In this document: positions 7,475-45,231 of the stretch, one piece after another
How positions within the stretch are numbered: the first letter of the stretch is position 1
How the letters are laid out: each line of letters opens with the position of its first letter
UHGV virus genome: UHGV-1370141
Strand: one strand, 5' to 3'
Length of the DNA stretch: 64,000 nt
Source of the DNA: a virus
Translations under genes and position numbers: made by a program
The notes under the pieces: model-generated
The model's input: only the letters and a program-made list of their open reading frames with translations
Databases searched by the model: none
What the model was told of the DNA's origin: nothing

Positions 7475-8515
7475 TTATACTGCGACGGGGGCCGCAATAT
7501 GTGGATGAGCTTGATAACCAACTAATTCGAAGTCTTCGTATTTGTAATCGAAGATAGAATCCGGTTTACGTTTGATAACCAGTTTAGGTAACGGGTAAGG
7601 CTCACGTGTAAGTTGAAGTTTTGCTTGTTCCAGATGGTTAGAATACAGATGAACGTCTACACCACTATAAACCAACTCGTCTGGAACCATGTTCAGTTGT
7701 TGAGCAACGATGTATGTTAACAACGCGTACGAAGCGATGTTGAACGGTAAACCTAAGAATACGTCGTTTGATCGCATCAGGAAGAAACACGAAAGCTTAC
7801 GACGCGGAATACCTTCACGATCTAAAGTTTCATGAAGTCGTTCTTCATCATCAATATCTTCGTGTTTAATAAGCGGTGCGCTCGCAAATTTTTCCGGTTC
7901 GTTTACTTCGTACCATTCCAGTCTCTCAAGCAGTGACATTTCCGTTGTGTAGAATTGGAAGTAGTTGTGACACGGGTTAAGTGCCATATCGTCCAAGTCA
8001 CTTACGTTCCAGGCACTAACAATAATACGGCGGGAGTCAGGGTCTTCGAGAAGTTGTTGGATAACTTTGCTGATCTGGTCGTGAGATTTGCGATAAATAA
8101 CGATACTTTCTTCAGGGTTGTCCTTTGCAATAGTACCAACGTAGCGATAGCCTCGTTCTCTCAATACGTCTTTACTACGCTCGTCCCAAAGATAAACCAG
8201 TTTGGTATCCATCCATTCCCGCCACTGGTGTCCGTAGACAGGTCCTAATTCCCCTTCCGCATTCGCCCACTCGTTCCAGATTCTTACCCCATTCTCTTGC
8301 AGGTACTTCACGTTAGTGTCACCGTTCAAGAACCATAACAGTTCATGAATGATACTTTTCAGGTGAACCTTTTTCGTAGTAACTAATGGGAAACCTTCTT
8401 TCAGGTCAAAACGTAGTTGGCGACCAAATACAGAAAGTGTCCCTACACCTGTACGGTCTTTCTTAACAACGCCGTTATCCAGAATGTCTTGCATTAACGC
8501 TAAATACTGTTTCAT
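7475..8515 (-). CDS. thyA: Thymidylate synthase (ThyA type) with two insertions
   Basis: Near-identical blocks to E. coli ThyA: [87 protein letters not shown]. 346 aa versus 264 aa. Confidence 0.93.
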
Positions 8516-8823
8516 TAGATTTTGTCCTTTTCGAGTTCAGTTAAAATTTCAAATAGGTCTGCGTTGGATTGCAGTACGACTTCACTGCCTTCTGCTACAA
8601 CGGTAATTGAAGGCTTCTTACCACGTAGCAAGAACTCCCAACGCATTGTTCTTACGTGGCTGTCGAGTAACTGCTTTAATTTGTGGTTAACTTCGACTTC
8701 CAATTTGCCCAGTAACTGTGGTGTAATAGCTTCGCCTGAGTTTTTGTTATAAAGCGTACGCACTAAAGAACGTAAAGAATAGCCAATGCATTGCGAAATT
8801 GCCCAACCCGAATAGTTTTCCAT
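8515..8823 (-). CDS. Hypothetical protein (102 aa)
   Basis: ORF whose stop overlaps the thyA start (TAATG-type junction). Confidence 0.4.
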
Positions 8824-16695: not shown

Positions 16696-18192
16696 TTATT
16701 TCTTTTTGGTGAGGAACTTCGGTTCCAGGCCGTCCACGGCCATACCCAGAATCGTACGGGCAGTTAACGTGCGTTTACCACCTTTCGTTTCTTGGTCTTT
16801 AAACATCCAGTATTCTACGGTGTTCTCCAGAATCTCATTCCAATCCCATTTCTCATCAATGAGTTTGTAGATTTCTTCCATCGTGAGGTGGTATTTAACC
16901 TCTAAACGATGGTAGTTGTTCTGCATGTACGCAATCGCGGCCGTGATTTCTAATGCCCGACGCAGTTTCGGGTTATCGTCGATCATGTCGCGAATCGTCG
17001 TACGCTGGAATTTAACACCAGGCAGAATCTGGAGTTCTTTAATGGAACCACCGCTACCGCTGGATGTAAATCCAAATTCGGATTTTTTCAGAGTGTCACT
17101 CAGGTAATGCCACAGGCTCAGGTGATACAGTAGACCCATCTCTTGCGAGAAGATCATCTGGAACTTCACGCCCGTGTGACCGCCTTTAGCACGGTACTGC
17201 GTAAAGGTGATAACTTTCAGGTCGTTAACCGACGCGTTCATGGCTTTTGAACGTGCGGTTGGGTAAAGTTCTTCGTTAACACCGGTCTGGGCGTTATAAC
17301 TCTGGTCTTTTTTCAGCTCGCCTGATTTTGTCGCAACAATAAACGAGTTAGTCAAGAAACTTAATTGACGACGAGGAATCCCTGCGAATTTGAGATCGTC
17401 GTTCGCATCGTCCAGCAGTTTCGCGTTTGCTTTCTGTCCTTGACGACCGCCCGCCATCGCCTTACCGGAGTCATCGGCCATCTGTGCAACAAAGCCCATG
17501 TAGAAACCACCACGGGCAAACGCAGACGGCCAACGGCTCATCATGTTCGATTTCTGTAAGGCGTCGTGGGCGTTGAGGATGTTCTGATCGGAATCACCGA
17601 TATCCGTTTTAGCGTGCTTGTCTTCCAGAGAAGACGAGTGCCACTCCGACAGGGAGTCGATAGAATACAGCCACGGGTCAAGGATTTCTTTTTGCTTACG
17701 ACGAACCGGGTCAAGGAACGGCGTTACACGCGTTTTACCAGACATATACTGCTTGAAGCGTTTTTCCACTTCATCACGAATATAGTCACTGTAATATTGT
17801 TCCCCTGGCATCACGTCAGAACCAACGAGGTTATAACGACCTTCGTGAATAAGTTCCAGTACCGAAGTTCCATCGTCAATACCGTTGGCGTGCATGGCAG
17901 AAATATAACCGGTCTCTAAGCGATCGAGGGCAGCAGACACTTCGGTATCGTATTTCGAACCCCACTCCGCTTTATAGCGTTGCAGGATTTGGAAGATACA
18001 GAAATCCAACAGTGTGGATTTGAAGGTGTTACCACGACCCGCGAAACCCATGATGTGGGCAAAACCACCGTTAAGGTAGTATAAACCATCTTCGCCTCTT
18101 TCGTAGTTGCCTAAGGCGTGGTCCATGATGGTATAAACGTTAAAACGAGGACGAATTACTTCACCGATAACTTGCTTAGTTGGGCCTGCCAT
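16696..18192 (-). CDS. RecA-superfamily recombinase candidate (UvsX-like non-canonical P-loop)
   Basis: GGFAHIMGFAGRGNTFKSTLLDF...QRYK resembles, from memory, T4 UvsX GG..G..ILAGPSKSFKS...RQYP; later IDSL. Protein is about 100 aa longer than UvsX. Confidence 0.35.
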   Translation of the reverse strand: MAGPTKQVIGEVIRPRFNVYTIMDHALGNYERGEDGLYYLNGGFAHIMGFAGRGNTFKSTLLDFCIFQILQRYKAEWGSKYDTEVSAALDRLETGYISAMHANGIDDGTSVLELIHEGRYNLVGSDVMPGEQYYSDYIRDEVEKRFKQYMSGKTRVTPFLDPVRRKQKEILDPWLYSIDSLSEWHSSSLEDKHAKTDIGDSDQNILNAHDALQKSNMMSRWPSAFARGGFYMGFVAQMADDSGKAMAGGRQGQKANAKLLDDANDDLKFAGIPRRQLSFLTNSFIVATKSGELKKDQSYNAQTGVNEELYPTARSKAMNASVNDLKVITFTQYRAKGGHTGVKFQMIFSQEMGLLYHLSLWHYLSDTLKKSEFGFTSSGSGGSIKELQILPGVKFQRTTIRDMIDDNPKLRRALEITAAIAYMQNNYHRLEVKYHLTMEEIYKLIDEKWDWNEILENTVEYWMFKDQETKGGKRTLTARTILGMAVDGLEPKFLTKKK

Positions 18193-29779: not shown

Positions 29780-30712
29780 TTACTTTTTGGCTTGACCCAG
29801 GTTTTCAAGAACCAGTTCACGAATGTACTTTTGAGTACGTTTCTTCGGCGGTAAAGCCATAAGGGTGTCAACAATTTCCTGACCGCCGATAACCTTGCTG
29901 ACGAGTTGTTGAACTTGGAAGAGTTCCGCTTCTTCGTCACTGATCTCATTAGCTTGGTCTTTCTGACACAGCGCTTCTACCAGGTCAGCTACGGATATTT
30001 CTTTTTCGTCACCAGGGAAATCCAGGTTTAACGATTCGAAAACATCACGTTTAACGAGCACAGATTTCAGATCATCGTAGTCTTCGCAAACGGCGACTTC
30101 TGTACCAGGGACGGTTTCTTCTTCGTCTTGATCTTCATTCTCAGCGGAGAGGTAATTTACTTCTGTTGCGTGGAACGTTGCGTCAGCTTTTCTCAGGACG
30201 TAGCTCACATGCGCCCAGTTGCTCAGGATGAAGTAGACGACGCCCCCATTTAATCCGATATTGCCTTGGCGAAGCTCGAGAGCAATTTCCAGGCGGCGCG
30301 AAATCTGCCCCAAGTCAAAGAAAGACTCGTCGCGTGCCGCAACAACTTCGTACTGATTCACCCCTTGTTCTACAACAACGAACCAGTTATCCGGGAGAGG
30401 ATATGGGTTGGGCATGAGAGAATGTTCGATCCCTACGCTTGGGTCAACAGTAACGGATGTATGCCGCATTCCCATGGAGAAGTTGAACATATCCCCATTT
30501 TGAACCGCAATTGCATTGTCGATTGGAAGAATTTTGGTGGTACGATCGATAGAGAAAATCACTTCTTGCGTAATTGAAGACTGATTACTGCCTAGGAAAT
30601 GGTTGCGCAGAAAGGCAGCGGTTGCACCTACGCTGGTTTGCAGCATATGGTAGTTATAACGACGACGTAGAGTGTTAGCCAGTTCGTAAATTACTTCAGA
30701 TGGAAAAGTCAT
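29780..30712 (-). CDS. Hypothetical protein (310 aa) with acidic C-terminal half, paralogue of 29169..29717
   Basis: See paralogue; acidic stretch ENEDQDEEETVPGTEVAVCEDYDDL. Confidence 0.45.
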   Translation of the reverse strand: MTFPSEVIYELANTLRRRYNYHMLQTSVGATAAFLRNHFLGSNQSSITQEVIFSIDRTTKILPIDNAIAVQNGDMFNFSMGMRHTSVTVDPSVGIEHSLMPNPYPLPDNWFVVVEQGVNQYEVVAARDESFFDLGQISRRLEIALELRQGNIGLNGGVVYFILSNWAHVSYVLRKADATFHATEVNYLSAENEDQDEEETVPGTEVAVCEDYDDLKSVLVKRDVFESLNLDFPGDEKEISVADLVEALCQKDQANEISDEEAELFQVQQLVSKVIGGQEIVDTLMALPPKKRTQKYIRELVLENLGQAKK

Positions 30713-31264: not shown

Positions 31265-31302
31265 AATAAATAAAAGTACCCCTAATCCGATTGGATTAGG
31301 GG
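31265..31302 (-). terminator. Rho-independent terminator (CCCCTAATCC-gatt-GGATTAGGGG; U-run on - strand)
   Basis: Perfect 10 bp stem with plus-strand A-run on 5' side, right after the stop of 31309..31818. Confidence 0.5.
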
Positions 31303-31308
31303 CAAGTA

Positions 31309-31818
31309 TTAGAAGAACGGTTGGTTTGGAATCACAGCAAATTCCAGAACGAAGATGTGTTCAGGGGCACCTGCCTGACGCCAGATTTTGTGCGTAGTCG
31401 CCAGTTTCTCCAGAATCGTCAGGAAGCTACGCTGGCAGTAGGTGTTCTCACCCAACAGCAAATTCTGTAACTCTACAGTGGCTTCCATATACGCTTCTTT
31501 AAAGACCTGATTCGGATTGTATTTACCGGTATGATGCCACAACAGAACTTTCCCTTGCTCTGTGTCTCTCACGGCCGGACGTAACCCGCAAATCCACAAC
31601 AAGGCAAGGTTGACGTTCCAGTCAAACTCTAAGCCTTCTTCTTCGTCATCACCGAAAGCCGTTTTAAGGGCATCGTAAAACTCATGTCGCGTTGCAAAGT
31701 CTTCGTCGGACTTTATCTGGTCTTCGTTACTGCTACGAACGATACTGTACACGTCCTGGGCAGTAATTTGGGTAGCCTTAGTGATACCTTTATACCAATC
31801 GGTTACAACGATGCTCAA
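31309..31818 (-). CDS. Hypothetical protein (169 aa)
   Basis: ORF with 4-nt overlap with the upstream lysin-candidate gene. Confidence 0.4.
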   Translation of the reverse strand: MSIVVTDWYKGITKATQITAQDVYSIVRSSNEDQIKSDEDFATRHEFYDALKTAFGDDEEEGLEFDWNVNLALLWICGLRPAVRDTEQGKVLLWHHTGKYNPNQVFKEAYMEATVELQNLLLGENTYCQRSFLTILEKLATTHKIWRQAGAPEHIFVLEFAVIPNQPFF

Positions 31819-32501
31819 AGGGTGACTCCTTGTTTAAATGGAAAACTGGTGTTTATCGTATCCCAAATTCGGTTAACTTCTGCCAACTGAATCTGGCGTT
31901 CTGGTTTCTTCGCAAACGCAAGCTGACGAGATGCTACAGGCTTGTTGATTTTCGCACTGTAGAACGTTGCATCTTTCATAAAGCTCGCCATTTCTCGTTG
32001 TGCTGCCCGAGACTTGCTTTTAATCCTGGCGTGTGCACCGCTTTCACCCCAGTGATAAGCCAATGCAATTTCTGCAATAGTGGGCTTGCGTTTGAGTCGT
32101 TTAGTCAACCCCTTTTCTAAATGTTTAACGTAGACGGAAGCCAATAGCACCGCATTACGAGGATTGTACAAATCCGCGTTACGACTAAGTCCGATTTCGT
32201 TGCCGTAGAGTTTTAGTAAATTACGCTTTGTGCTCGGTAGCATCTGAACCAGACTGTGCGCTTTAGACGTTCGATTATACGCCTTCGGATTAAACCGCGA
32301 TTCCCGATAGATTAGCGTGGTCATCAACTTAGGATCGACGCCCTGCTTTCGGGAGATTTCCACAATCAACGGTTTTACCCGTTCGAAACGGTCTTGAATC
32401 ATTTCGAATTCACGATGGTGTTTGGCACTGGGTGCGGATTTGGATGCGTATGCGTTAAACGCGAAAAGTGTTACCAGTAAAAGAAAGAAAATACGAAACA
32501 T
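31815..32501 (-). CDS. Secreted lytic transglycosylase (SLT family); endolysin candidate
   Basis: Start set at internal Met (MFRIFFLLLVTLFAFNAYA, signal-peptide-like) with GGAGA SD; SLT motif RESRFNPKAYNRTSKAHSLVQML and AYHWG. Confidence 0.6.
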   Translation of the reverse strand: MFRIFFLLLVTLFAFNAYASKSAPSAKHHREFEMIQDRFERVKPLIVEISRKQGVDPKLMTTLIYRESRFNPKAYNRTSKAHSLVQMLPSTKRNLLKLYGNEIGLSRNADLYNPRNAVLLASVYVKHLEKGLTKRLKRKPTIAEIALAYHWGESGAHARIKSKSRAAQREMASFMKDATFYSAKINKPVASRQLAFAKKPERQIQLAEVNRIWDTINTSFPFKQGVTL

Positions 32502-32601
32502 ACTAGTTCTCCAGTTGGATTTATACATTTCCGTGTTCCGTAGAACGAAATCACGGCGCGGACAGCTGGAACTCCTTTGTTGTGTGCCCTAATGATAATA
32601 T

Positions 32602-33126
32602 CTATTTAAAAAGGTTTGGAATTAAAGGTTTTGCTTCTTGGTAAAGCGTATCGGGTAAATAGAAACGGTAATGTTGTCTCCTCGGTACGAGTTTCTTTTC
32701 GATAAACAAAAAGATTTGTTGACGTTCAGCTTTTGTCAACCAACCGTTAGCCATCCCTAACGGCGGTAAAGCCACCCCACCCTCTAAGTTTTCTGCGGCA
32801 TCTGCCAACGCGGTGATACCCGCGATAACATAAGAAACCTGGGATTTCAGTTTCCAATGTGTTTTAGTTGGTAAGAGAATGCAGTTTTCCTCGGGATAAA
32901 CATACACATTCCCTATTCGTATTTCGTTAGCGAAGCAACGTTCTCGGTAGTCCTGATAAAGCCCAGGATAGCGTTCTCTGCACGCTAAAGCGATACCCCG
33001 ACCCATTGCCCCTACACAATTTATCGTAACGACCTTGAAGCGCTCAGGGGCGTTAAACAGGTCGTTGTCAATATCCGATTCTGGAAGTATCGTTAGCATA
33101 ACGGTCTTACCGAGTGAGGTAAGCAT
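32602..33126 (-). CDS. Macro-domain-like protein (ADP-ribose binding/hydrolase candidate)
   Basis: VVTINCVGAMGRGIALAC and GVALPPLGMANG resemble macro-domain blocks (VVNAAN...GGGGV...G and AFPAISTGVYG) as recalled for E. coli YmdB; start may be an internal Met. Confidence 0.4.
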   Translation of the reverse strand: MLTSLGKTVMLTILPESDIDNDLFNAPERFKVVTINCVGAMGRGIALACRERYPGLYQDYRERCFANEIRIGNVYVYPEENCILLPTKTHWKLKSQVSYVIAGITALADAAENLEGGVALPPLGMANGWLTKAERQQIFLFIEKKLVPRRQHYRFYLPDTLYQEAKPLIPNLFK

Positions 33127-33199
33127 AATTGATGCACAGGGATAAACCGCGTTCCACCAATCGCCAACTCAACCAAAATCGCTATATACGTTTTAGACA

Positions 33200-33574
33200 T
33201 TAACGATTCCTTTTCACCCATTGACTGATAACGGACTCCAGTCCTTCGTGTTCGAGACCGAGGCGTTTCATGGCAAGGTGTAATTCCAGCGTGTGAGTAA
33301 TCTGTTCTCGGGTTTGGGCGTCGTTCATCTTCTCCCAGACCTTCTCCAGATTAATGTTAAATTTTGACAGCATATACGCTTCGCGACACGCACCACGACG
33401 CCACAAACTCGGTTTAACGAACGGTAATTCGATTTCTGGAATCAGCCACAGCAGTTTATTAACCCGCGTAAGTTCACTACCACCGATTTCGTGACACTGA
33501 TAACAGATTTGTAAGATGTCGCTGTTATCCAGTGGTTCACTAAATAGATACGGGGTTTGGGTTCCTGGTAACAT
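33200..33574 (-). CDS. Hypothetical protein (124 aa)
   Basis: ORF in - block. Confidence 0.4.
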   Translation of the reverse strand: MLPGTQTPYLFSEPLDNSDILQICYQCHEIGGSELTRVNKLLWLIPEIELPFVKPSLWRRGACREAYMLSKFNINLEKVWEKMNDAQTREQITHTLELHLAMKRLGLEHEGLESVISQWVKRNR

Positions 33575-33776
33575 CTGGATTCTCCTTAGGCTCGAAAGGT
33601 GATTCAGGTGGCAGCGTTCCTAACGCACCTTGAATACAGGCTGTCAGTGCAGGTTTACCAAAACACACCTGACCGATCTTACCCATGTTGGGATGCTGGA
33701 GAAATGCTTTTGCGCGTTCGTATTCTTTCCAGCAAATGCTTGTATCCATTCCACCTACACCGAAACTGTTTAACAT
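33540..33776 (-). CDS. Small hypothetical protein (78 aa)
   Basis: ORF filling the gap between the GNAT gene and 33200..33574; short, uncertain. Confidence 0.3.
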   Translation of the reverse strand: MLNSFGVGGMDTSICWKEYERAKAFLQHPNMGKIGQVCFGKPALTACIQGALGTLPPESPFEPKENPDVTRNPNPVSI

Positions 33777-33842
33777 AAGTAGCTCTCCTGACGTAAAATT
33801 CTCACACTCATAGTGAGGAACGTCAAGAGAGCCTTTATTGTT

Positions 33843-34286
33843 TTAGAAAGTTTTGCTGAAATCCACCCATTCTTTATCGTGAGAATAGGTTGCTTTGTAG
33901 CCACGACGAATGAAATACTCTTTCGCTTCTTTGCACTTCGTGTACATCCCAATGGCAATTTCACCGAATGCTTCATCAGCGGCTATCGCTTTGAAGATTT
34001 CTTTCATTACCCCACGCTGACGGTAATCAGGCAGCACGTATAACGAACGAATTTTGAGTACCCCGTTGCGATTACGGTAACTGCAATAACCCACCGCAAC
34101 ATCGTCGATATAAATCAGAACAACACAGTTGCCTTCGATCAGTTGACGCACGTTTAATTTCGGTACAGCGGTTTTGATTTTCAGCATCGTTGCTTGGTGA
34201 TCTAAGTAACGGTAATGAAGTGCGAGTAAATCTTTCGCTTGTTCTTCACCGATTTTAGAAAGTGCGTTCAACAAATAAATTTCCAT
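33843..34286 (-). CDS. GNAT-family N-acetyltransferase
   Basis: Core LYVLPDYRQRGVMKEIFKAI (GNAT motif A R/Q-x-x-G-x-G/A region) preceded by beta-strand VVLIYIDDVAVGYCSY; size typical of GNAT. Confidence 0.55.
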   Translation of the reverse strand: MEIYLLNALSKIGEEQAKDLLALHYRYLDHQATMLKIKTAVPKLNVRQLIEGNCVVLIYIDDVAVGYCSYRNRNGVLKIRSLYVLPDYRQRGVMKEIFKAIAADEAFGEIAIGMYTKCKEAKEYFIRRGYKATYSHDKEWVDFSKTF

Positions 34287-34318: not shown

Positions 34319-34447
34319 TTAAAACCAACGTCCAATGATAAAAGCGGCAGCGGCGAGAAGCAGTACGGTAATAAAACCCGCACCCCATGTTAGTTCCGCG
34401 TTATATAAAGCGCCGATTGCAGCATTGGTAGTATTGACAACAGTCAT
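34319..34447 (-). CDS. Small hydrophobic protein (about 42 aa; not in ORF track)
   Basis: Manual translation MTVVNTTNAAIGALYNAELTWGAGFITVLLLAAAAFIIGRWF with GAGGGA SD upstream; coordinates approximate. Confidence 0.3.
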   Translation of the reverse strand: MTVVNTTNAAIGALYNAELTWGAGFITVLLLAAAAFIIGRWF

Positions 34448-34605
34448 AGTTCTTCCCTCGTAAAACACCCTCCCAGTTACCCAGGAGGGGGTTCTAACTT
34501 AACTGTGCGTAGAGCCTTTGAAAGCCCATCCGTACTTATTAATCAGCCAGTTGAGAGATTTCCCAATAATCCACAACGACCCAAGTGTTAACAGAATACC
34601 CTCAA

Positions 34606-34806
34606 TCATGACTTCCCTCCAACACACCGCCACTCACATTCGCGTTGGTGCCAAATTGAACCCCAGGTGAGCCTAATCGCGTACGCTAAGACCACCCATA
34701 AAATCGCCGTTATACAAAATAGCACGTACAGAATGGCAACCAGCACCATGACGCTAAACCCTAAAACGCTTAGTAACTGACGCCACCAATCAGTTTGCGT
34801 AGACAA
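34606..34806 (-). CDS. Small membrane protein (66 aa)
   Basis: Hydrophobic core LLSVLGFSVMVLVAILYVLFCITAILWVVLAYAI; TTG start whose codon overlaps the SbcC-like gene 3' end. Confidence 0.35.
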   Translation of the reverse strand: MSTQTDWWRQLLSVLGFSVMVLVAILYVLFCITAILWVVLAYAIRLTWGSIWHQRECEWRCVGGKS

Positions 34807-37312
34807 TTTTTACTCCTTCGTTGTAAACCGCAGGCAGTGTTACGCCTTCAGGTTCAATAACACAGTATGCGGCTTCGTTAAGTTTTGAATGAATTTCTGC
34901 TTCGTGAGATACCACCAGTAACTGAGAGAACTCACCGGAATTCGCCAGGGTTTTAATAAACCCAACGAGGTTATTTCGGTGTTCTTCATCCATCCCTTCT
35001 GACGGCTCATCCAACAGTAGCGGATACTGATGAAGTTTCAGGGCTTTGTAAGCGGTTAAACGAAACATCAAATTAAAGATGGCTCGCTGCGCTTTCGACC
35101 CTTTCCGCACGTCAGGTACCGGTTCAGGATGGGTTTTTAACTGCACTGGGAACGTGTAGTCTAAGTCACCGTCGGTTAAGTCACACGGCATGACCCGCAT
35201 AGGGTAGGTCCAGACTTGTTCGATATATCGCGTCATCAATTCCGTGATTCTCACGATAGCGTTGTAGAAGTATTTGCGTAGTACCCCTTTCTCGGGCGAG
35301 AACGCTTGAATCATCAGTTTGTTATTGAATTGCTGTGCCTGTAAATCCGATAACTCCTTTTCTAACGCAGTAAGTTGGTTGAGCTCGTTTTCCATCTGAC
35401 GGTACCGTTCCCGTGCTGTGGTGAACGCATCCAACTTGTTTTCTCGGGCGTTTAATAACGTTTCGACCACCGTGTTGGTTAATGTTACCTTAACATCGTT
35501 CTCTAAACGCTCAAAAACCGCATTAAAATTGTCTACAGTGGCTTTAAGTTCGTTTAGATAACAAAAGGTATCATTAGCAACTGCGTGCTCTCTACGGCGC
35601 TCTGAGAGCGTTTCTGTCGCCTTACCCAAACGCTCCTGCTGGAAGGCAATTTTCTGCTGTAGAGCACCATCAACGTTACCTACCGCTGCAACTGCGTTTG
35701 CCCACTCTTTTTCCGCTTTAGCAAAACGGTGTTTCGTTTCGTGGTATTCAATTGCGGAATAAAGTTCACGATCGAACTCTGCACACAAACTGCCAAACTG
35801 ACTGCGGTTATCCGTAAAGACATTCCGCTCCTGGAGACGTTTAAAGAACAAACTCAATACCGGGTCTTTCGAGTATGTTAAAACGATTTCCCGCACTTGG
35901 CGCATGTAATTAACGTCCGACTCTAATTCCGTACGGTCTCGCAACACGGAATCAAGCTGAGTCTGTAACGTATTACGTTGCTCCATTTGTCCACGAATGG
36001 CTTCTTCCAATTCAGGCAAAGAACGACGCACGCCCGGACGGAATTTAAATTGACACTGCGGACAATCAACCTCTGCGGTTTCCAAATAGTGATTCCGTTC
36101 GTGGTTGAGGTTCTGCAATACGTTTTCAACGCGTTGTAGTCGGTCACGCAACCCAGATGAGTTCTGGTCTAAGGTCAACAGTTTCTCTTCCAGTACGTTC
36201 AACCGTTCCGTTGATTTAATAGCATCCAGCGTTGTTCCTAAACGTTGTCCCCAGACACGCGCATCCGTCGCTGCTTTAAGCTGGTCAATGTTAACGGTCT
36301 CCGCAAACAGTTCAGGGAAAAGATGTTCGGTGTCCCACTGCTTTAATAACTCACGCAGTTTTGCAACCGTGTTCTTTAACCCTTCGTGATTCCGCATCAG
36401 GTAATCTTGGCGGGTAGACTCGTCCATCAACAGAGACAAATCTTTGTTTAGCATAGACAGCTCTGTTTCAGCAGAGACCACCGCTTCACGGGCAGTGGCT
36501 TCAACGCGTCGTGCTTCCTCTACCTGTTCTTCCGTAGGTAATCCACCACGGTGTTCCAAGATAGCATTAATCGGTGCTTCGATTTTAAGCAATAGCGATT
36601 GAATCGTTGCCACCGTAACGTCACGATTCAGGCCCGGCAGTTGTTCAATCTGTTTGTTGAGTTCACGTAAATCTGCTTCTAATGCTTTTAACCGTGTTGC
36701 TAACTGCTGACGTTCTTCCTCGTTATCAATCACGCGGGTACGCAACTCTGCAATCTTGCGGCTGGTGATTTCAATACCGCCGTTTAACATCGTCAGGTTT
36801 TTTCGTAAACGTTGATAAAAACCTAACGCGTAAGTTAAGTCTGACGTACTTAAACGGTAGAACCACTTACGACGCAGTTCCGTTCCTGCATCCGTTAAAA
36901 GCACTTCTCCGTTCAGTAACTCTTTAATCTCTTTTGTAATGCCCGTGATTTCTTCTACACGAGAGTTATACACTTTCGCATTACCTTGTTCGACGATTTT
37001 GGTACCCGTCGTCAGGTTCTCGATATCGCAAACCAGTGAGTTGCCTTTACGTGCAACCTTAAATTTGTAACGATGGTCGTTAACCAAACAGATGTTGGTG
37101 TAAGAACCCCCGTCACGGAATTCGGATTTCGAAGGTGCGATAGGTAGAAACACGGACAGTAAGCTGGTCTTACCGCAGCCGTTACCACCGAGGATAATAG
37201 TGGTTGGGGAATGGATAGTAAAATCGAAGGTTTCGATTTCGTGTAGTCCCATCCCGGTAAACCCTTTAAGTACAATACGTTCAACTTTTAACATGTCCAC
37301 CTCCATATTCAC
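34790..37312 (-). CDS. SbcC/Rad50-like SMC-family ATPase with zinc hook
   Basis: N-terminal Walker A IILGGNGCGKTSLL; long coiled-coil middle with CPQC zinc-hook; C-terminal Walker B LLLDEPSEGMD and H-loop VVSHEAE. Confidence 0.8.
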   Translation of the reverse strand: MNMEVDMLKVERIVLKGFTGMGLHEIETFDFTIHSPTTIILGGNGCGKTSLLSVFLPIAPSKSEFRDGGSYTNICLVNDHRYKFKVARKGNSLVCDIENLTTGTKIVEQGNAKVYNSRVEEITGITKEIKELLNGEVLLTDAGTELRRKWFYRLSTSDLTYALGFYQRLRKNLTMLNGGIEITSRKIAELRTRVIDNEEERQQLATRLKALEADLRELNKQIEQLPGLNRDVTVATIQSLLLKIEAPINAILEHRGGLPTEEQVEEARRVEATAREAVVSAETELSMLNKDLSLLMDESTRQDYLMRNHEGLKNTVAKLRELLKQWDTEHLFPELFAETVNIDQLKAATDARVWGQRLGTTLDAIKSTERLNVLEEKLLTLDQNSSGLRDRLQRVENVLQNLNHERNHYLETAEVDCPQCQFKFRPGVRRSLPELEEAIRGQMEQRNTLQTQLDSVLRDRTELESDVNYMRQVREIVLTYSKDPVLSLFFKRLQERNVFTDNRSQFGSLCAEFDRELYSAIEYHETKHRFAKAEKEWANAVAAVGNVDGALQQKIAFQQERLGKATETLSERRREHAVANDTFCYLNELKATVDNFNAVFERLENDVKVTLTNTVVETLLNARENKLDAFTTARERYRQMENELNQLTALEKELSDLQAQQFNNKLMIQAFSPEKGVLRKYFYNAIVRITELMTRYIEQVWTYPMRVMPCDLTDGDLDYTFPVQLKTHPEPVPDVRKGSKAQRAIFNLMFRLTAYKALKLHQYPLLLDEPSEGMDEEHRNNLVGFIKTLANSGEFSQLLVVSHEAEIHSKLNEAAYCVIEPEGVTLPAVYNEGVKIVYAN

Positions 37313-44108: not shown

Positions 44109-44846
44109 TTACGCGGTTTTAATTAACAGCAGATAGTCCTTCGTAATCTCAGCACAACCCCACCCTCTCATCGCGGCGATTTTACGAAGATCAATTTTCT
44201 CGTGATATTTCAATAAGGGATCGTCCGGGTTAATTTCAACCAGGTGTGTGGCTTTAGAAATCGTTTCCACATCTGGTATTTGTTTTGCTAAGTCCGATGC
44301 AATTAGTTCAATAACGCGGTATCCGTTTAACACAGAAACATAAATGCGTAAACCATATAGCGTGCCCTCGTCTTCTAATGGACAAAGATCGATGCCGGGT
44401 CCAAGCAGTGATAACTCGACGTTATCGGGAAGGTTTTCTGCATTTCGGAGTAACCCTATCCCATTTCTAAACAGAGGGAAGTAAGAGAATAGTGGTGGTA
44501 AAGCCCAACCATTCCCAATAAGCACATCAGCGATACTCGTAGGTGTGTTCGCAAGAAGACGAATGTGGTCAGCCACAACTTCAAGTTCGGCATCACTGAT
44601 CAACTTATAGATTAACATGACACTGGTTTCGGTATTAATAACAAAGAAGACGCGGTTGGCGTAACTGCCTATCACGTATTCGTCAATCATACAGTCGATA
44701 ACGTCACTGTCTGGATAATCTTCAGGTTTAATTGTTCCAGCATCGATTAACTTAGCAGGTTGCGATTGTTTTAATAGTTCTTTAACCACCGTAGAAGAAA
44801 GTTCTAAACTGGTGTTGGTAAAGATATCGTCTAACAATTCTCTCAT
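44109..44846 (-). CDS. Member 4 (divergent) of the paralogue family (C-terminus GWGCAEITKDYLLLIKTA)
   Basis: Start set to internal Met (MRELLDD) preceded by AGGAGA SD; weaker match to the C-terminal module. Confidence 0.45.
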   Translation of the reverse strand: MRELLDDIFTNTSLELSSTVVKELLKQSQPAKLIDAGTIKPEDYPDSDVIDCMIDEYVIGSYANRVFFVINTETSVMLIYKLISDAELEVVADHIRLLANTPTSIADVLIGNGWALPPLFSYFPLFRNGIGLLRNAENLPDNVELSLLGPGIDLCPLEDEGTLYGLRIYVSVLNGYRVIELIASDLAKQIPDVETISKATHLVEINPDDPLLKYHEKIDLRKIAAMRGWGCAEITKDYLLLIKTA

Positions 44847-45231
44847 GGGGTTTATTCTCCTAAAAAGGGATAAGGAAGTCACTACGTTCCTCTGGGAAGA
44901 GTATGTCGGTATACTACGTATACCTCCGCTATTTATATCCGTATACATAATGCCCCCTACCCCCTACCGGTATCCCGAGTAGCAGAATAAAGGGACAATC
45001 TGTAAATTTTAAGTAATACTATGATTACCGTGGTAGATAAGGTGAATAGTGACGGAAGAGTCTCACTACCTCTTCGATACCGTCTTTCTGTTCAGCGAAC
45101 ATGGTAGCCTCCACTATTGTTAGTATCCGTTTCGAAAAGAAACGTGCCCATAGGGGTTGAAGTGCGAGTTCAACCCCTATTCACTTAAGTAAAATATATC
45201 TGAATCTATTTCCGATCTAAGGAACGACCTA

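What the first reader, a model, noticed from the sequence alone, without database searches (positions are those of the whole stretch)
32602..34286. Macro-domain-like protein and GNAT acetyltransferase in the same short gene run: candidate anti-defence island
The 174-aa protein has glycine-rich blocks (VVTINCVGAMGRGIALAC; GVALPPLGMANG) in the positions expected for macro-domain ADP-ribose-binding loops. Two genes away is a GNAT-fold acetyltransferase (YVLPDYRQRGVMKEIF). Established knowledge: macro domains remove ADP-ribose marks, and bacteria use ADP-ribosylation (for example DarT on DNA) and NAD-derived signals in anti-phage defence. GNATs are used by phages and by toxin systems to acetylate targets. 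Inference: these may counteract host immunity.
Basis: partly seen in the sequence, partly recalled or inferred. Interest (0 to 1): 0.55.

Follow-up and report, generated by a model that had tools for sequence, protein, structure and literature searches.

The report
Jumbo-phage AdfM anti-DarT macrodomain gene
The small macro-domain gene is this jumbo phage's copy of AdfM, a recently described enzyme that strips a bacterial defence toxin's ADP-ribose marks off phage DNA, while the nearby acetyltransferase belongs to a separate module of unknown function and shows no evidence of working with it.

Summary

The 174-aa ORF (more likely 165 aa, starting at M10) is a DarG2-type macrodomain:
- NCBIfam DarG E 7.8e-31, PADLOC DarG E 4.6e-31, and solved DarG macrodomains E 3e-20.
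- 62% identical to, and syntenic with, Erwinia phage Asesino gp217.
- 35% identical to PhiKZ gp104, the founding AdfM protein (Morgan et al., Cell Rep 2026).
- Both catalytic residues are conserved (N36, K88).

The window is 94–98% identical to a 222-kb phiKZ-like jumbo phage deposited as an E. coli "plasmid".

The anti-defence reading is therefore right for the macro gene, but that family is already known.

The GNAT is a genuine but generic acetyltransferase:
- It is restricted to the SPN3US/Erwinia phage clade.
- It is absent from Derbicus, which keeps the macro gene.
- Chance alone would put a GNAT this close in 8–13% of cases.

The stretch is conserved synteny under purifying selection, not a mobile island.

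The more unusual feature is a 78-aa gene that always follows the GNAT. It encodes a degenerate copy of the EF-Tu N-terminus. I found no paper describing it.

The parts
32602..33099 (-). AdfM orthologue: an orphan DarG2-like macrodomain of 165 aa counted from M10 (the longest ORF runs to 33126, 174 aa). Catalytic residues are N36 and K88 in 174-aa numbering.
   Evidence: NCBIfam DarG 7.8e-31; PADLOC DarG 4.6e-31; PDB DarG macrodomains 5m3i and 5m31. 62% identical to Asesino gp217 and 35% to PhiKZ gp104. N and K are invariant in the alignment. Start-site evidence.
33093..33200 (-). 35-aa ORF, translationally coupled on both sides: TAATG with the 124-aa gene and ATGCTAA with the macro gene. It is a truncated relative of SPN3US gp071.
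   Evidence: Sequence read directly. The N-terminal 19 residues are conserved in metagenomic relative L007, where a 34-aa gene was called.
33200..33574 (-). 124-aa protein of unknown function (phrog_11720), with a conserved helical C-terminal half. Orthologues are SPN3US gp072, Asesino gp214 and Huxley gp205.
   Evidence: PHROG 5.4e-35; orthologues; family limited to this clade. AF2 pLDDT 66 with no PDB fold match.
33540..33776 (-). 78-aa protein: a degenerate EF-Tu N-terminal fragment (about EF-Tu residues 3-50) with a non-canonical P-loop. It has a strong Shine-Dalgarno sequence and always lies directly downstream of the GNAT.
   Evidence: NCBIfam EF-Tu models. A phage-only profile hits EF-Tu residues 10-55 at E 5e-7. 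Relatives carry HVNVGTIGHVDH. Adjacency to the GNAT. dN/dS 0.11. AF2 pLDDT 50.
33843..34286 (-). GNAT-fold N-acetyltransferase of 147 aa (phrog_3810), substrate unknown.
   Evidence: Pfam Acetyltransf_1, _7 and _10 above cutoff; phrog_3810 2.2e-26. Found in 53 phage records, all in the SPN3US/Erwinia clade. RimI only weak. Best PDB match 1q2y at 6.7e-6.
34468..34489 (-). Terminator-like hairpin (9-bp stem, 6 G-C pairs) upstream of the GNAT; possible 5' boundary of the transcription unit.
   Evidence: The total number of such sites is not above the shuffled expectation, so this is tentative.
31277..31304 (-). Terminator-like hairpin (12-bp stem) just after the 169-aa gene; possible 3' boundary of the unit.
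   Evidence: tentative.
31815..32528 (-). SLT-domain lytic transglycosylase with an N-terminal signal-like segment. It is the conserved downstream neighbour of the macro gene.
   Evidence: Pfam SLT 4e-14; phrog_4067; synteny.
34790..37312 (-). SbcC/SMC-like ATPase, the conserved upstream anchor of the syntenic block.
   Evidence: phrog_77 2.4e-92; 69% identical to Asesino gp207.

Best explanation
**Proposed function.** The macro gene encodes this phage's AdfM, a standalone DarG2-type macrodomain.
- It has the ADP-ribose-binding loops and the catalytic Asn/Lys pair.
- It lacks DarG's C-terminal DarT-binding domain, and no DarT gene lies nearby.

**Proposed mechanism.**
1. When the phage infects an enterobacterial host that carries a DarTG2 toxin-antitoxin defence, DarT2 ADP-ribosylates thymidines in single-stranded phage DNA at TNTC motifs.
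2. AdfM hydrolyses these adducts, so replication and packaging can proceed.
3. By analogy with the PhiKZ, PhiPA3 and Asesino proteins, AdfM is probably concentrated in the phage nucleus by the PicA import pathway.

**What is shown and what is inferred.** Shown here: homology, catalytic residues, orthology by synteny, and chimallivirus context. Inferred from the published family: the enzymatic activity, the DarT2 target and the nuclear import.

**The GNAT.** It is probably co-transcribed with the macro gene but belongs to a different, clade-specific trio (GNAT, EF-Tu-fragment protein, 124-aa protein). Its function is unknown, and the only available hints (weak RimI similarity, the adjacent EF-Tu fragment) point toward the host translation apparatus.
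For: **DarG-specific macro class.**
- NCBIfam DarG 7.8e-31, covering profile positions 7-154 of 338, which is the macrodomain only.
- PADLOC DarG 4.6e-31.
- Solved M. tuberculosis and T. aquaticus DarG macrodomains, 2.8e-20 and 7e-18.

**Catalytic residues.** N36 and K88 are invariant. They align with T. aquaticus DarG2 N22/K80 and PhiKZ N23/K78 (residue roles from PMC13309987).

**Orthology.**
- 62% identity over the full length to Asesino gp217 (YP_009290835.1), the same protein shown to localise to the nucleus.
- 35% identity to PhiKZ gp104.
- Each is the other's only hit: PhiKZ gp104 finds one locus in the relative's genome, and the window protein finds one place in the PhiKZ record.
- Same slot between the SbcC-like gene and the SLT gene in SPN3US, Asesino, Huxley, Wellington and Derbicus.

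**Published function of the family.** PhiKZ AdfM removes DarT2 ADP-ribose in vitro, rescues DarT2 toxicity, and its deletion sensitises the phage to DarTG2.

**Chimallivirus context.**
- The closest relatives are all in genera listed under Chimalliviridae.
- The 94-98% identical genome NZ_CP173450.1 encodes phiKZ-type split RNA polymerases.
- It also encodes an 87%-identical homologue of SPN3US gp244, the reported chimallin.

**The gene is maintained.** dN/dS is 0.07.
Against: - No experiment exists for this protein or for any SPN3US-like AdfM beyond the localisation of the Asesino orthologue.
- Identity to the biochemically tested PhiKZ protein is only 35%.
- The second loop reads ANGW rather than GNGG.
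- Chimallin and PicA could not be found with PhiKZ queries. The nucleus-forming status therefore rests on taxonomy and on a published assignment of SPN3US gp244 that I could not verify independently; Pfam gave no hit.
- TNTC is not depleted in the window (observed/expected 1.04), so there is no independent genomic sign of DarT2 pressure.
- Whether the natural hosts carry DarTG2 was not tested.
Confidence: 0.85

Rival explanations
1. The macro protein is a general ADP-ribose-metabolite enzyme. It would be an Appr-1''-p phosphatase or O-acetyl-ADP-ribose deacetylase, or a degrader of NAD-derived immune signals such as Thoeris gcADPR, rather than a DNA de-ADP-ribosylase.
For: Older annotations call the homologues 'Appr-1-p processing' or 'phosphatase'. 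Iyer et al. proposed that jumbo-phage Macro domains degrade soluble ADP-ribose signals.
Against: - The sequence matches DarG-specific profiles about 28 orders of magnitude better than the generic Pfam Macro model.
- It keeps the DarG catalytic lysine.
- The PhiKZ family member was shown to act on DarT2-modified DNA and to be needed specifically against DarTG2.
Confidence: 0.07
2. The GNAT and the macro gene form one functional two-enzyme system, either an anti-defence pair or an acetyl-ADP-ribose cycle. This is what the first reader's 'island' idea implies.
For: - They lie in the same probable transcription unit.
- The linkage is kept in Seoulvirus, Erskinevirus, Machinavirus and Wellingtonvirus.
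- An unrelated GNAT overlaps the macro gene in Serratia phage Yaphecito.
Against: - Derbicus keeps the macro gene in the same slot without the GNAT.
- PhiKZ, PhiEaH1, Eowyn and Ea35-70 have no GNAT next to their macro gene.
- The macro family occurs in 238 phage records and this GNAT family in 53.
- With 3 GNATs among about 225 genes, proximity within 3-5 genes has a chance probability of 8-13%.
- PhiKZ AdfM works alone in vitro and in E. coli.
Confidence: 0.08
3. The GNAT, the adjacent EF-Tu-fragment protein and the 124-aa protein act together on the host translation apparatus. The GNAT could acetylate EF-Tu or ribosomal proteins, with the fragment acting as a pseudo-substrate or regulator. 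Alternatively, the fragment could be a decoy for defences that sense or cleave EF-Tu. Either way, the module is independent of AdfM.
For: - The GNAT and the EF-Tu-like gene are adjacent in every relative examined, even where the GNAT is only 27% identical.
- GNAT, EF-Tu-like and 124-aa genes are present together in the syntenic slot in every GNAT-carrying relative aligned locally, and all three are missing from that slot in Derbicus.
- The phage-only profile is specific for EF-Tu.
- RimI is the most consistent weak hit of the GNAT family, in 7 of 8 members, and RimI acetylates EF-Tu (PMC9079301).
- Iyer et al. noted ribosomal-GNAT-like enzymes in phiKZ-like phages.
- EF-Tu is cleaved by Lit and type IV Thoeris and co-opted by Avs7.
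Against: - RimI similarity is far below the cutoff (15 against 86 bits).
- The EF-Tu-like N-terminal motif is internal, not at the protein's N-terminus.
- The fragment lacks EF-Tu domains II/III, which are the ones used by Avs7.
- The AF2 model has low confidence.
- All co-occurrence is within one clade, so it may be inherited linkage.
Confidence: 0.2

Closest known systems
AdfM (anti-DarT factor macro): PhiKZ gp104, PhiPA3 gp108, Goslar gp83, Asesino gp217 (Morgan et al., Cell Rep 2026, PMC13309987)
   Same: - Standalone DarG2-like macrodomain of about 160-165 aa.
- Same catalytic Asn and Lys.
- Encoded by a phiKZ-like chimallivirus.
- Syntenic with Asesino gp217 and 62% identical to it.
   Different: - Only 35% identical to the biochemically characterised PhiKZ protein.
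- It comes from an undescribed E. coli/Salmonella-associated relative of SPN3US.
- Activity, nuclear import and DarTG2 protection are untested for this lineage.
DarG2, the antitoxin of the bacterial DarTG2 toxin-antitoxin system (PDB 5m31, 5m3e, 5m3i)
   Same: Homologous macrodomain (about 38-39% identity to the aligned core), the same ADP-ribose loops and the same catalytic residues.
   Different: It has no C-terminal DarT-binding domain and no partner DarT gene, so it can neutralise only by reversing the modification. It is encoded by a phage.
AdfN, the orphan NADAR antitoxin of T4-like phages acting against DarTG1 (PMC11825919); AdfA; and AdfB of ICP1 (PMC11481870)
   Same: The same strategy: the phage carries an orphan antitoxin-like factor against a DarT toxin.
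   Different: AdfN has an unrelated fold (NADAR) and acts against a different toxin (DarT1). AdfB appears to bind DarT rather than reverse the modification.
RimI and other small GNAT N-acetyltransferases; the phage GNAT Rac (as cited)
   Same: GNAT fold with an acetyl-CoA-binding motif region and a size of about 150 aa.
   Different: No subfamily-level match: RimI scores 15 bits against an 86-bit cutoff, and there is no PADLOC hit. The substrate is unknown.
Bacterial elongation factor Tu (for the 78-aa neighbour of the GNAT)
   Same: Sequence homology to EF-Tu residues of about 3-50. Long-form relatives extend to about residue 85 and include an exact HVNVGTIGHVDH.
   Different: - It is only a fragment of the G domain.
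- The P-loop GK(T/S) is degenerate.
- It has a novel N-terminal extension of about 15-25 aa.
- It has no domains II/III and is not predicted to fold alone.

Membership tests
AdfM (chimallivirus orphan DarG2-like macrodomain) | Macrodomain specifically homologous to the DarG2 macrodomain | tested here: met
   NCBIfam DarG 7.8e-31; PADLOC DarG 4.6e-31; PDB 5m3i 2.8e-20 and 5m31 7e-18.
AdfM (chimallivirus orphan DarG2-like macrodomain) | Catalytic Asn (Taq N22 / PhiKZ N23) and Lys (Taq K80 / PhiKZ K78) | tested here: met
   N36 and K88 are invariant columns in alignment A1 with PhiKZ gp104, Asesino gp217 and two DarG2 macrodomains.
AdfM (chimallivirus orphan DarG2-like macrodomain) | Standalone protein with no DarG C-terminal domain and no adjacent DarT | tested here: met
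   The match covers profile positions 7-154 of 338 only. The protein is 165-174 aa. None of the eight flanking ORFs scanned has a DarT match.
AdfM (chimallivirus orphan DarG2-like macrodomain) | Orthology with a named family member | tested here: met
   62% identity over the full length to Asesino gp217. Same syntenic slot. Each is the other's only hit: PhiKZ gp104 finds one locus in the relative's genome, and the window protein finds one place in the PhiKZ record.
AdfM (chimallivirus orphan DarG2-like macrodomain) | Encoded by a nucleus-forming (Chimalliviridae) phage | tested here: met
   The nearest relatives are all in Chimalliviridae genera. The 94-98% identical genome has phiKZ-type RNA polymerase subunits and an 87%-identical homologue of SPN3US gp244, the reported chimallin. 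Caveat: PhiKZ ChmA and PicA gave no direct hit.
AdfM (chimallivirus orphan DarG2-like macrodomain) | PicA-dependent import into the phage nucleus | not testable with these tools
   Shown by microscopy for the Asesino, PhiKZ and PhiPA3 proteins only.
AdfM (chimallivirus orphan DarG2-like macrodomain) | Removes DarT2 ADP-ribose from DNA and protects the phage from DarTG2 | not testable with these tools
   Shown for PhiKZ AdfM and inferred here.
Full-length DarG antitoxin of a DarTG operon | C-terminal DarT-binding domain and a cognate DarT gene next door | tested here: not met
   Only the macrodomain half of the 338-position profile is matched. The neighbours are the 124-aa, 35-aa and SLT genes.
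GNAT superfamily (Pfam Acetyltransf_1) | Score above the curated Pfam threshold | tested here: met
   35 bits against 20.7. Acetyltransf_7 and Acetyltransf_10 are also above their cutoffs.
GNAT superfamily (Pfam Acetyltransf_1) | Acetyl-CoA pyrophosphate-binding motif (Q/R-x-x-G-x-G/A) | tested here: inconclusive
   The window has RQRGVM, with Met in the last position. R89 and M94 are invariant in the family, but the Gly is replaced in SPN3US (RRRKTM).
RimI (ribosomal protein S18 / EF-Tu N-terminal acetyltransferase) | NCBIfam TIGR01575 equivalog score of at least 86.4 bits | tested here: not met
   15.4 bits for the window protein. The best E-value in the family is 1.5e-4, with 7 of 8 members hitting weakly.
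Known defence-system proteins in PADLOC-DB (GNAT) | Significant match to a PADLOC family | tested here: not met
   Only a chance-level Csm3 hit at E 0.024. No dedicated anti-defence library was available, so AcrVA5-type GNATs were not tested.
EF-Tu / translational GTPase (78-aa ORF) | Complete G domain with a GxxxxGK[ST] P-loop, plus domains II and III | tested here: not met
   Only 78 aa. The window has GQVCFGKP, and relatives have GHVDHSRS or GHVDHGRS. The homology is limited to EF-Tu residues of about 10-55.

The most novel reading that the evidence does not exclude
The clade-specific trio next to AdfM is an undescribed module that manipulates or shields the host factor EF-Tu. The trio consists of the GNAT, a captured and degenerate EF-Tu N-terminal fragment, and a 124-aa helical protein. 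The fragment could be a pseudo-substrate or regulator of a RimI-like acetyltransferase. Alternatively, it could be a decoy for EF-Tu-directed defences such as the Lit or type IV Thoeris proteases. If so, this stretch would hold two separate counter-defence functions.
Probability: 0.15. Interest if true: 0.65.

Novelty: new member of a known kind. Interest (0 to 1): 0.3.

Why it matters
This result extends AdfM, so far tested only in Pseudomonas phages and localised in one Erwinia phage, to an uncharacterised SPN3US-like jumbo phage. That phage circulates with clinical E. coli, Salmonella and Shigella isolates. It predicts that DarTG2 is a relevant barrier for enterobacterial chimalliviruses, which bears on the choice of jumbo phages for therapy.

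It also corrects 'hypothetical protein', 'phosphatase' and 'Appr-1-p processing' annotations on this gene among the 238 phage records that hold a homologue.

The conceptual advance, that the phage nucleus needs an imported antitoxin, is already published. The macro finding therefore confirms existing work rather than adding to it.

The unexplained GNAT plus EF-Tu-fragment pairing is the only part that could lead somewhere new.

Tried and rejected
1. **Generic Pfam Macro assignment.** It was marginal, so DarG-specific profiles were used instead.
2. **GNAT-macro adjacency in independent lineages.** Only Yaphecito has it, and with an unrelated GNAT (BLASTP E 0.024). The neighbours of the macro gene in PhiKZ, PhiEaH1, Eowyn and Ea35-70 are not GNATs. 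A functional pair is rejected as unsupported.
3. **GNAT subfamily assignment.** NCBIfam, a PDB profile search and a homologue search gave nothing specific. The homologue search found only 6 close relatives.
4. **AF2 model of the 78-aa EF-Tu-like protein.** pLDDT was 50 and unusable, so no fold search was run.
5. **AF2 model of the 124-aa protein.** pLDDT was 66, and the best Foldseek hit against the PDB had E above 7. This was a dead end.
6. **Nucleotide similarity of the EF-Tu-like gene to E. coli tuf.** None was found, so a recent capture is rejected.
7. **PhiKZ ChmA, PicA and PhuZ as probes against the relative's genome.** No hits, because they are too divergent. SPN3US gp244 was used instead. 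Pfam has no model that hits it.
8. **Rfam scan of 28-40 kb.** Nothing was found.
9. **TNTC depletion as a footprint of DarT2 pressure.** None was found, with a ratio of 1.04.
10. **Supplementary files of the AdfM paper.** None are held as text, so I could not check whether SPN3US-like phages are in its list.
11. **Structure prediction of the macrodomain itself.** Not run. Both prediction jobs went to the unknown proteins, and the fold is covered by the sequence match to solved DarG structures.
Full report
**1. What is in the sequence**

On the minus strand between 37312 and 31309 lies a run of same-strand genes:

| Coordinates | Product |
|---|---|
| 34790-37312 | SbcC/SMC-like ATPase |
| 34319-34806 | three small hydrophobic ORFs |
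| 33843-34286 | GNAT, 147 aa |
| 33540-33776 | 78-aa ORF |
| 33200-33574 | 124-aa ORF |
| 33093-33200 | 35-aa ORF |
| 32602-33126 | macro ORF |
| 31815-32528 | SLT transglycosylase |
| 31309-31818 | 169-aa ORF |

The gene junctions are tight:
- The 124-aa gene starts inside the end of the 78-aa gene, behind an AGGAGA Shine-Dalgarno sequence.
- Its stop overlaps the start of the 35-aa ORF (TAATG).
- That ORF's stop overlaps the second ATG of the macro ORF (ATGCTAA at 33099).

All homologues align from that second ATG. Gene callers gave 165 aa in two close relatives. The macro protein is therefore most likely 165 aa.

Two strong hairpin-plus-T-run sites on the minus strand, at 34489-34468 and 31304-31277, bracket a plausible transcription unit running from the GNAT to the 169-aa gene. 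This is tentative, because the total count of such sites is not above the shuffled expectation.

**2. The macro protein is an AdfM orthologue**

The generic Pfam Macro model matches only marginally (E 0.0014, below its cutoff). DarG-specific models match strongly:
- NCBIfam DarG at E 7.8e-31, over profile positions 7-154 of 338.
- PADLOC DarG at E 4.6e-31.
- The solved DarG macrodomains of M. tuberculosis and T. aquaticus at E 2.8e-20 and 7e-18.

tblastn finds homologues in 238 phage records, nearly all jumbo phages. They include PhiKZ gp104.

PhiKZ gp104 was published in 2026 as AdfM (PMC13309987). According to that paper:
- It is a DarG2-like orphan antitoxin imported into the phage nucleus by PicA.
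- It removes DarT2 ADP-ribose from a TNTC oligonucleotide.
- It rescues cells from DarT2 toxicity.
- It is required for growth on DarTG2-carrying hosts.
- The Asesino orthologue gp217 also localises to the nucleus.

The window protein compares with these as follows:
- It is 62% identical over its full length to that same Asesino protein (YP_009290835.1).
- It is 35% identical to PhiKZ gp104.
- N36 and K88 are invariant. They correspond to the catalytic N22/K80 of T. aquaticus DarG2 and N23/K78 of PhiKZ AdfM.
- It has no DarG C-terminal domain, and there is no DarT gene nearby.

**3. The phage**

The window has almost no nucleotide match among deposited phages. It is 94-98% identical over 62 kb to NZ_CP173450.1, a circular 221,873-bp 'plasmid' of a urinary E. 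coli isolate.

That genome shows the marks of a chimallivirus:
- It encodes homologues of the PhiKZ split virion and non-virion RNA polymerases.
- It encodes an 87%-identical homologue of SPN3US gp244, reported as a diverged chimallin.
- The nearest protein relatives (SPN3US, Asesino, Huxley, Wellington, Derbicus) all belong to genera listed under Chimalliviridae.

PhiKZ ChmA, PicA and PhuZ were too divergent to hit.

**4. The GNAT and the 'island' idea**

The GNAT passes the Pfam thresholds but has no specific subfamily:
- RimI is the most consistent weak hit, in 7 of 8 family members. It scores 15 bits against an 86-bit cutoff.
- The best PDB match is an uncharacterised GNAT.
- PADLOC gives nothing.

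The GNAT family occurs in 53 phage records, all in the SPN3US/Erwinia clade. The macro family occurs in 238.

Evidence on a link between the GNAT and the macro gene:
- Every gene of the block has orthologues in SPN3US, Asesino and Huxley in the same order.
- Derbicus keeps the macro gene in the same slot but lacks the GNAT, the 78-aa gene and the 124-aa gene.
- PhiKZ, PhiEaH1, Eowyn and Ea35-70 have no GNAT next to their macro gene.
- Only Yaphecito has a GNAT beside its macro gene, and that GNAT is unrelated in sequence.
- The relative's genome has three annotated GNATs among about 225 genes. One falling within 3-5 genes of the macro gene is expected in 8-13% of cases.

On rates of change, all genes of the block are under purifying selection, with dN/dS of 0.06-0.15 where dS is measurable. 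They are nevertheless much more diverged from SPN3US than the core genes are:

| Genes | Identity to SPN3US |
|---|---|
| core genes (gp240, gp244, gp245) | 81-87% |
| macro | 64% |
| 78-aa ORF | 45% |
| 124-aa ORF | 44% |
| GNAT | 40% |

The stretch is therefore a fast-evolving accessory block that is vertically inherited. It is not a mobile island, and there is no evidence that the GNAT works with the macro protein.

**5. An unexpected neighbour**

The 78-aa gene directly downstream of the GNAT is a degenerate fragment of EF-Tu.
- Relatives carry HVNVGTIGHVDH, identical to EF-Tu's first strand and P-loop. Their GK(T) is mostly replaced by SRS or GRS.
- A profile built only from phage sequences hits EF-Tu residues of about 10-55 in the PDB at E 5e-7 to 2e-6. 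Other GTPases are essentially absent from the hits.
- Genuine EF-Tu fragments still score E of about 1e-5 against 5.8 billion proteins.
- The long forms (109-110 aa) also resemble EF-Tu's second and third strands.

Other properties of the gene and its family:
- The family is confined to this phage clade.
- It follows the GNAT in every relative examined, including Wellington, where the GNAT is only 27% identical.
- It is under purifying selection, with dN/dS of 0.11.
- It has no nucleotide similarity to E. coli tuf.
- It is not predicted to fold alone (pLDDT 50).

Context from the literature:
- RimI acetylates EF-Tu (PMC9079301).
- EF-Tu is cleaved by Lit and type IV Thoeris and is co-opted by Avs7 (PMC13581612).
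- Iyer et al. noted ribosomal-GNAT-like enzymes in phiKZ-like phages (PMC7824862).
- I found no paper describing this gene.

Its role is unknown. A translation-directed or decoy function is a hypothesis only.

**6. Verdict**

However, this is a new member of an already characterised family.

The GNAT part and the island idea are not supported.

Interest is modest. The EF-Tu-fragment/GNAT pairing is the one lead that might be new.

Noticed in passing
window 33540-33776 (-): A 78-aa gene encodes a degenerate EF-Tu N-terminal fragment. Relatives carry an exact HVNVGTIGHVDH but a broken P-loop. It lies directly after the GNAT in every relative examined, is under purifying selection, and was left unannotated by PGAP in the near-identical E. 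coli record. I found no literature on it.
   Followed up: partly
whole window; NZ_CP173450.1 (L016-L020): The window is 94-98% identical to a 221,873-bp circular record deposited as a plasmid of a urinary E. coli isolate. That record is really a phiKZ-like jumbo phage genome. Proteins 97-98% identical are also labelled Salmonella enterica (a cluster of 378 sequences) and Shigella flexneri. This suggests phage carriage or contamination in many isolate assemblies.
   Followed up: partly
window 34319-34806 (-): Three small hydrophobic, membrane-like ORFs (49, 44 and 66 aa) lie between the SbcC-like gene and the GNAT. They have weak counterparts in SPN3US, Asesino and Huxley.
   Followed up: no
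L012:1103-2037 (Erwinia phage Wellington): Wellington carries two tandem GNAT genes (gp214 and gp215) at this position. Its EF-Tu-like sequence appears split between two reading frames: a hit at 2159-2215 and the annotated gp216 at 2226-2525.
   Followed up: no
window ~8080-8516, ~30115-30675 and ~44305-44849: These are breaks in the otherwise collinear alignment with NZ_CP173450.1. Next to thyA the relative has about 313 bp more than the window, corresponding to a 106-aa hypothetical gene. The 310-aa ORF at 29780-30712 has a diverged segment.
   Followed up: no
L017:12148-13134 and 16698-17165 (NZ_CP173450.1, outside the window): The same phage genome has two further GNAT genes. One, of 328 aa, lies next to a DNA adenine methylase gene.
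   Followed up: no
window 31815-32528 (-): The SLT transglycosylase next to the macro gene has an N-terminal hydrophobic, signal-like segment. It is annotated as an endolysin in Huxley and Derbicus, and a second SLT domain lies in the giant protein at the window's start.
   Followed up: no
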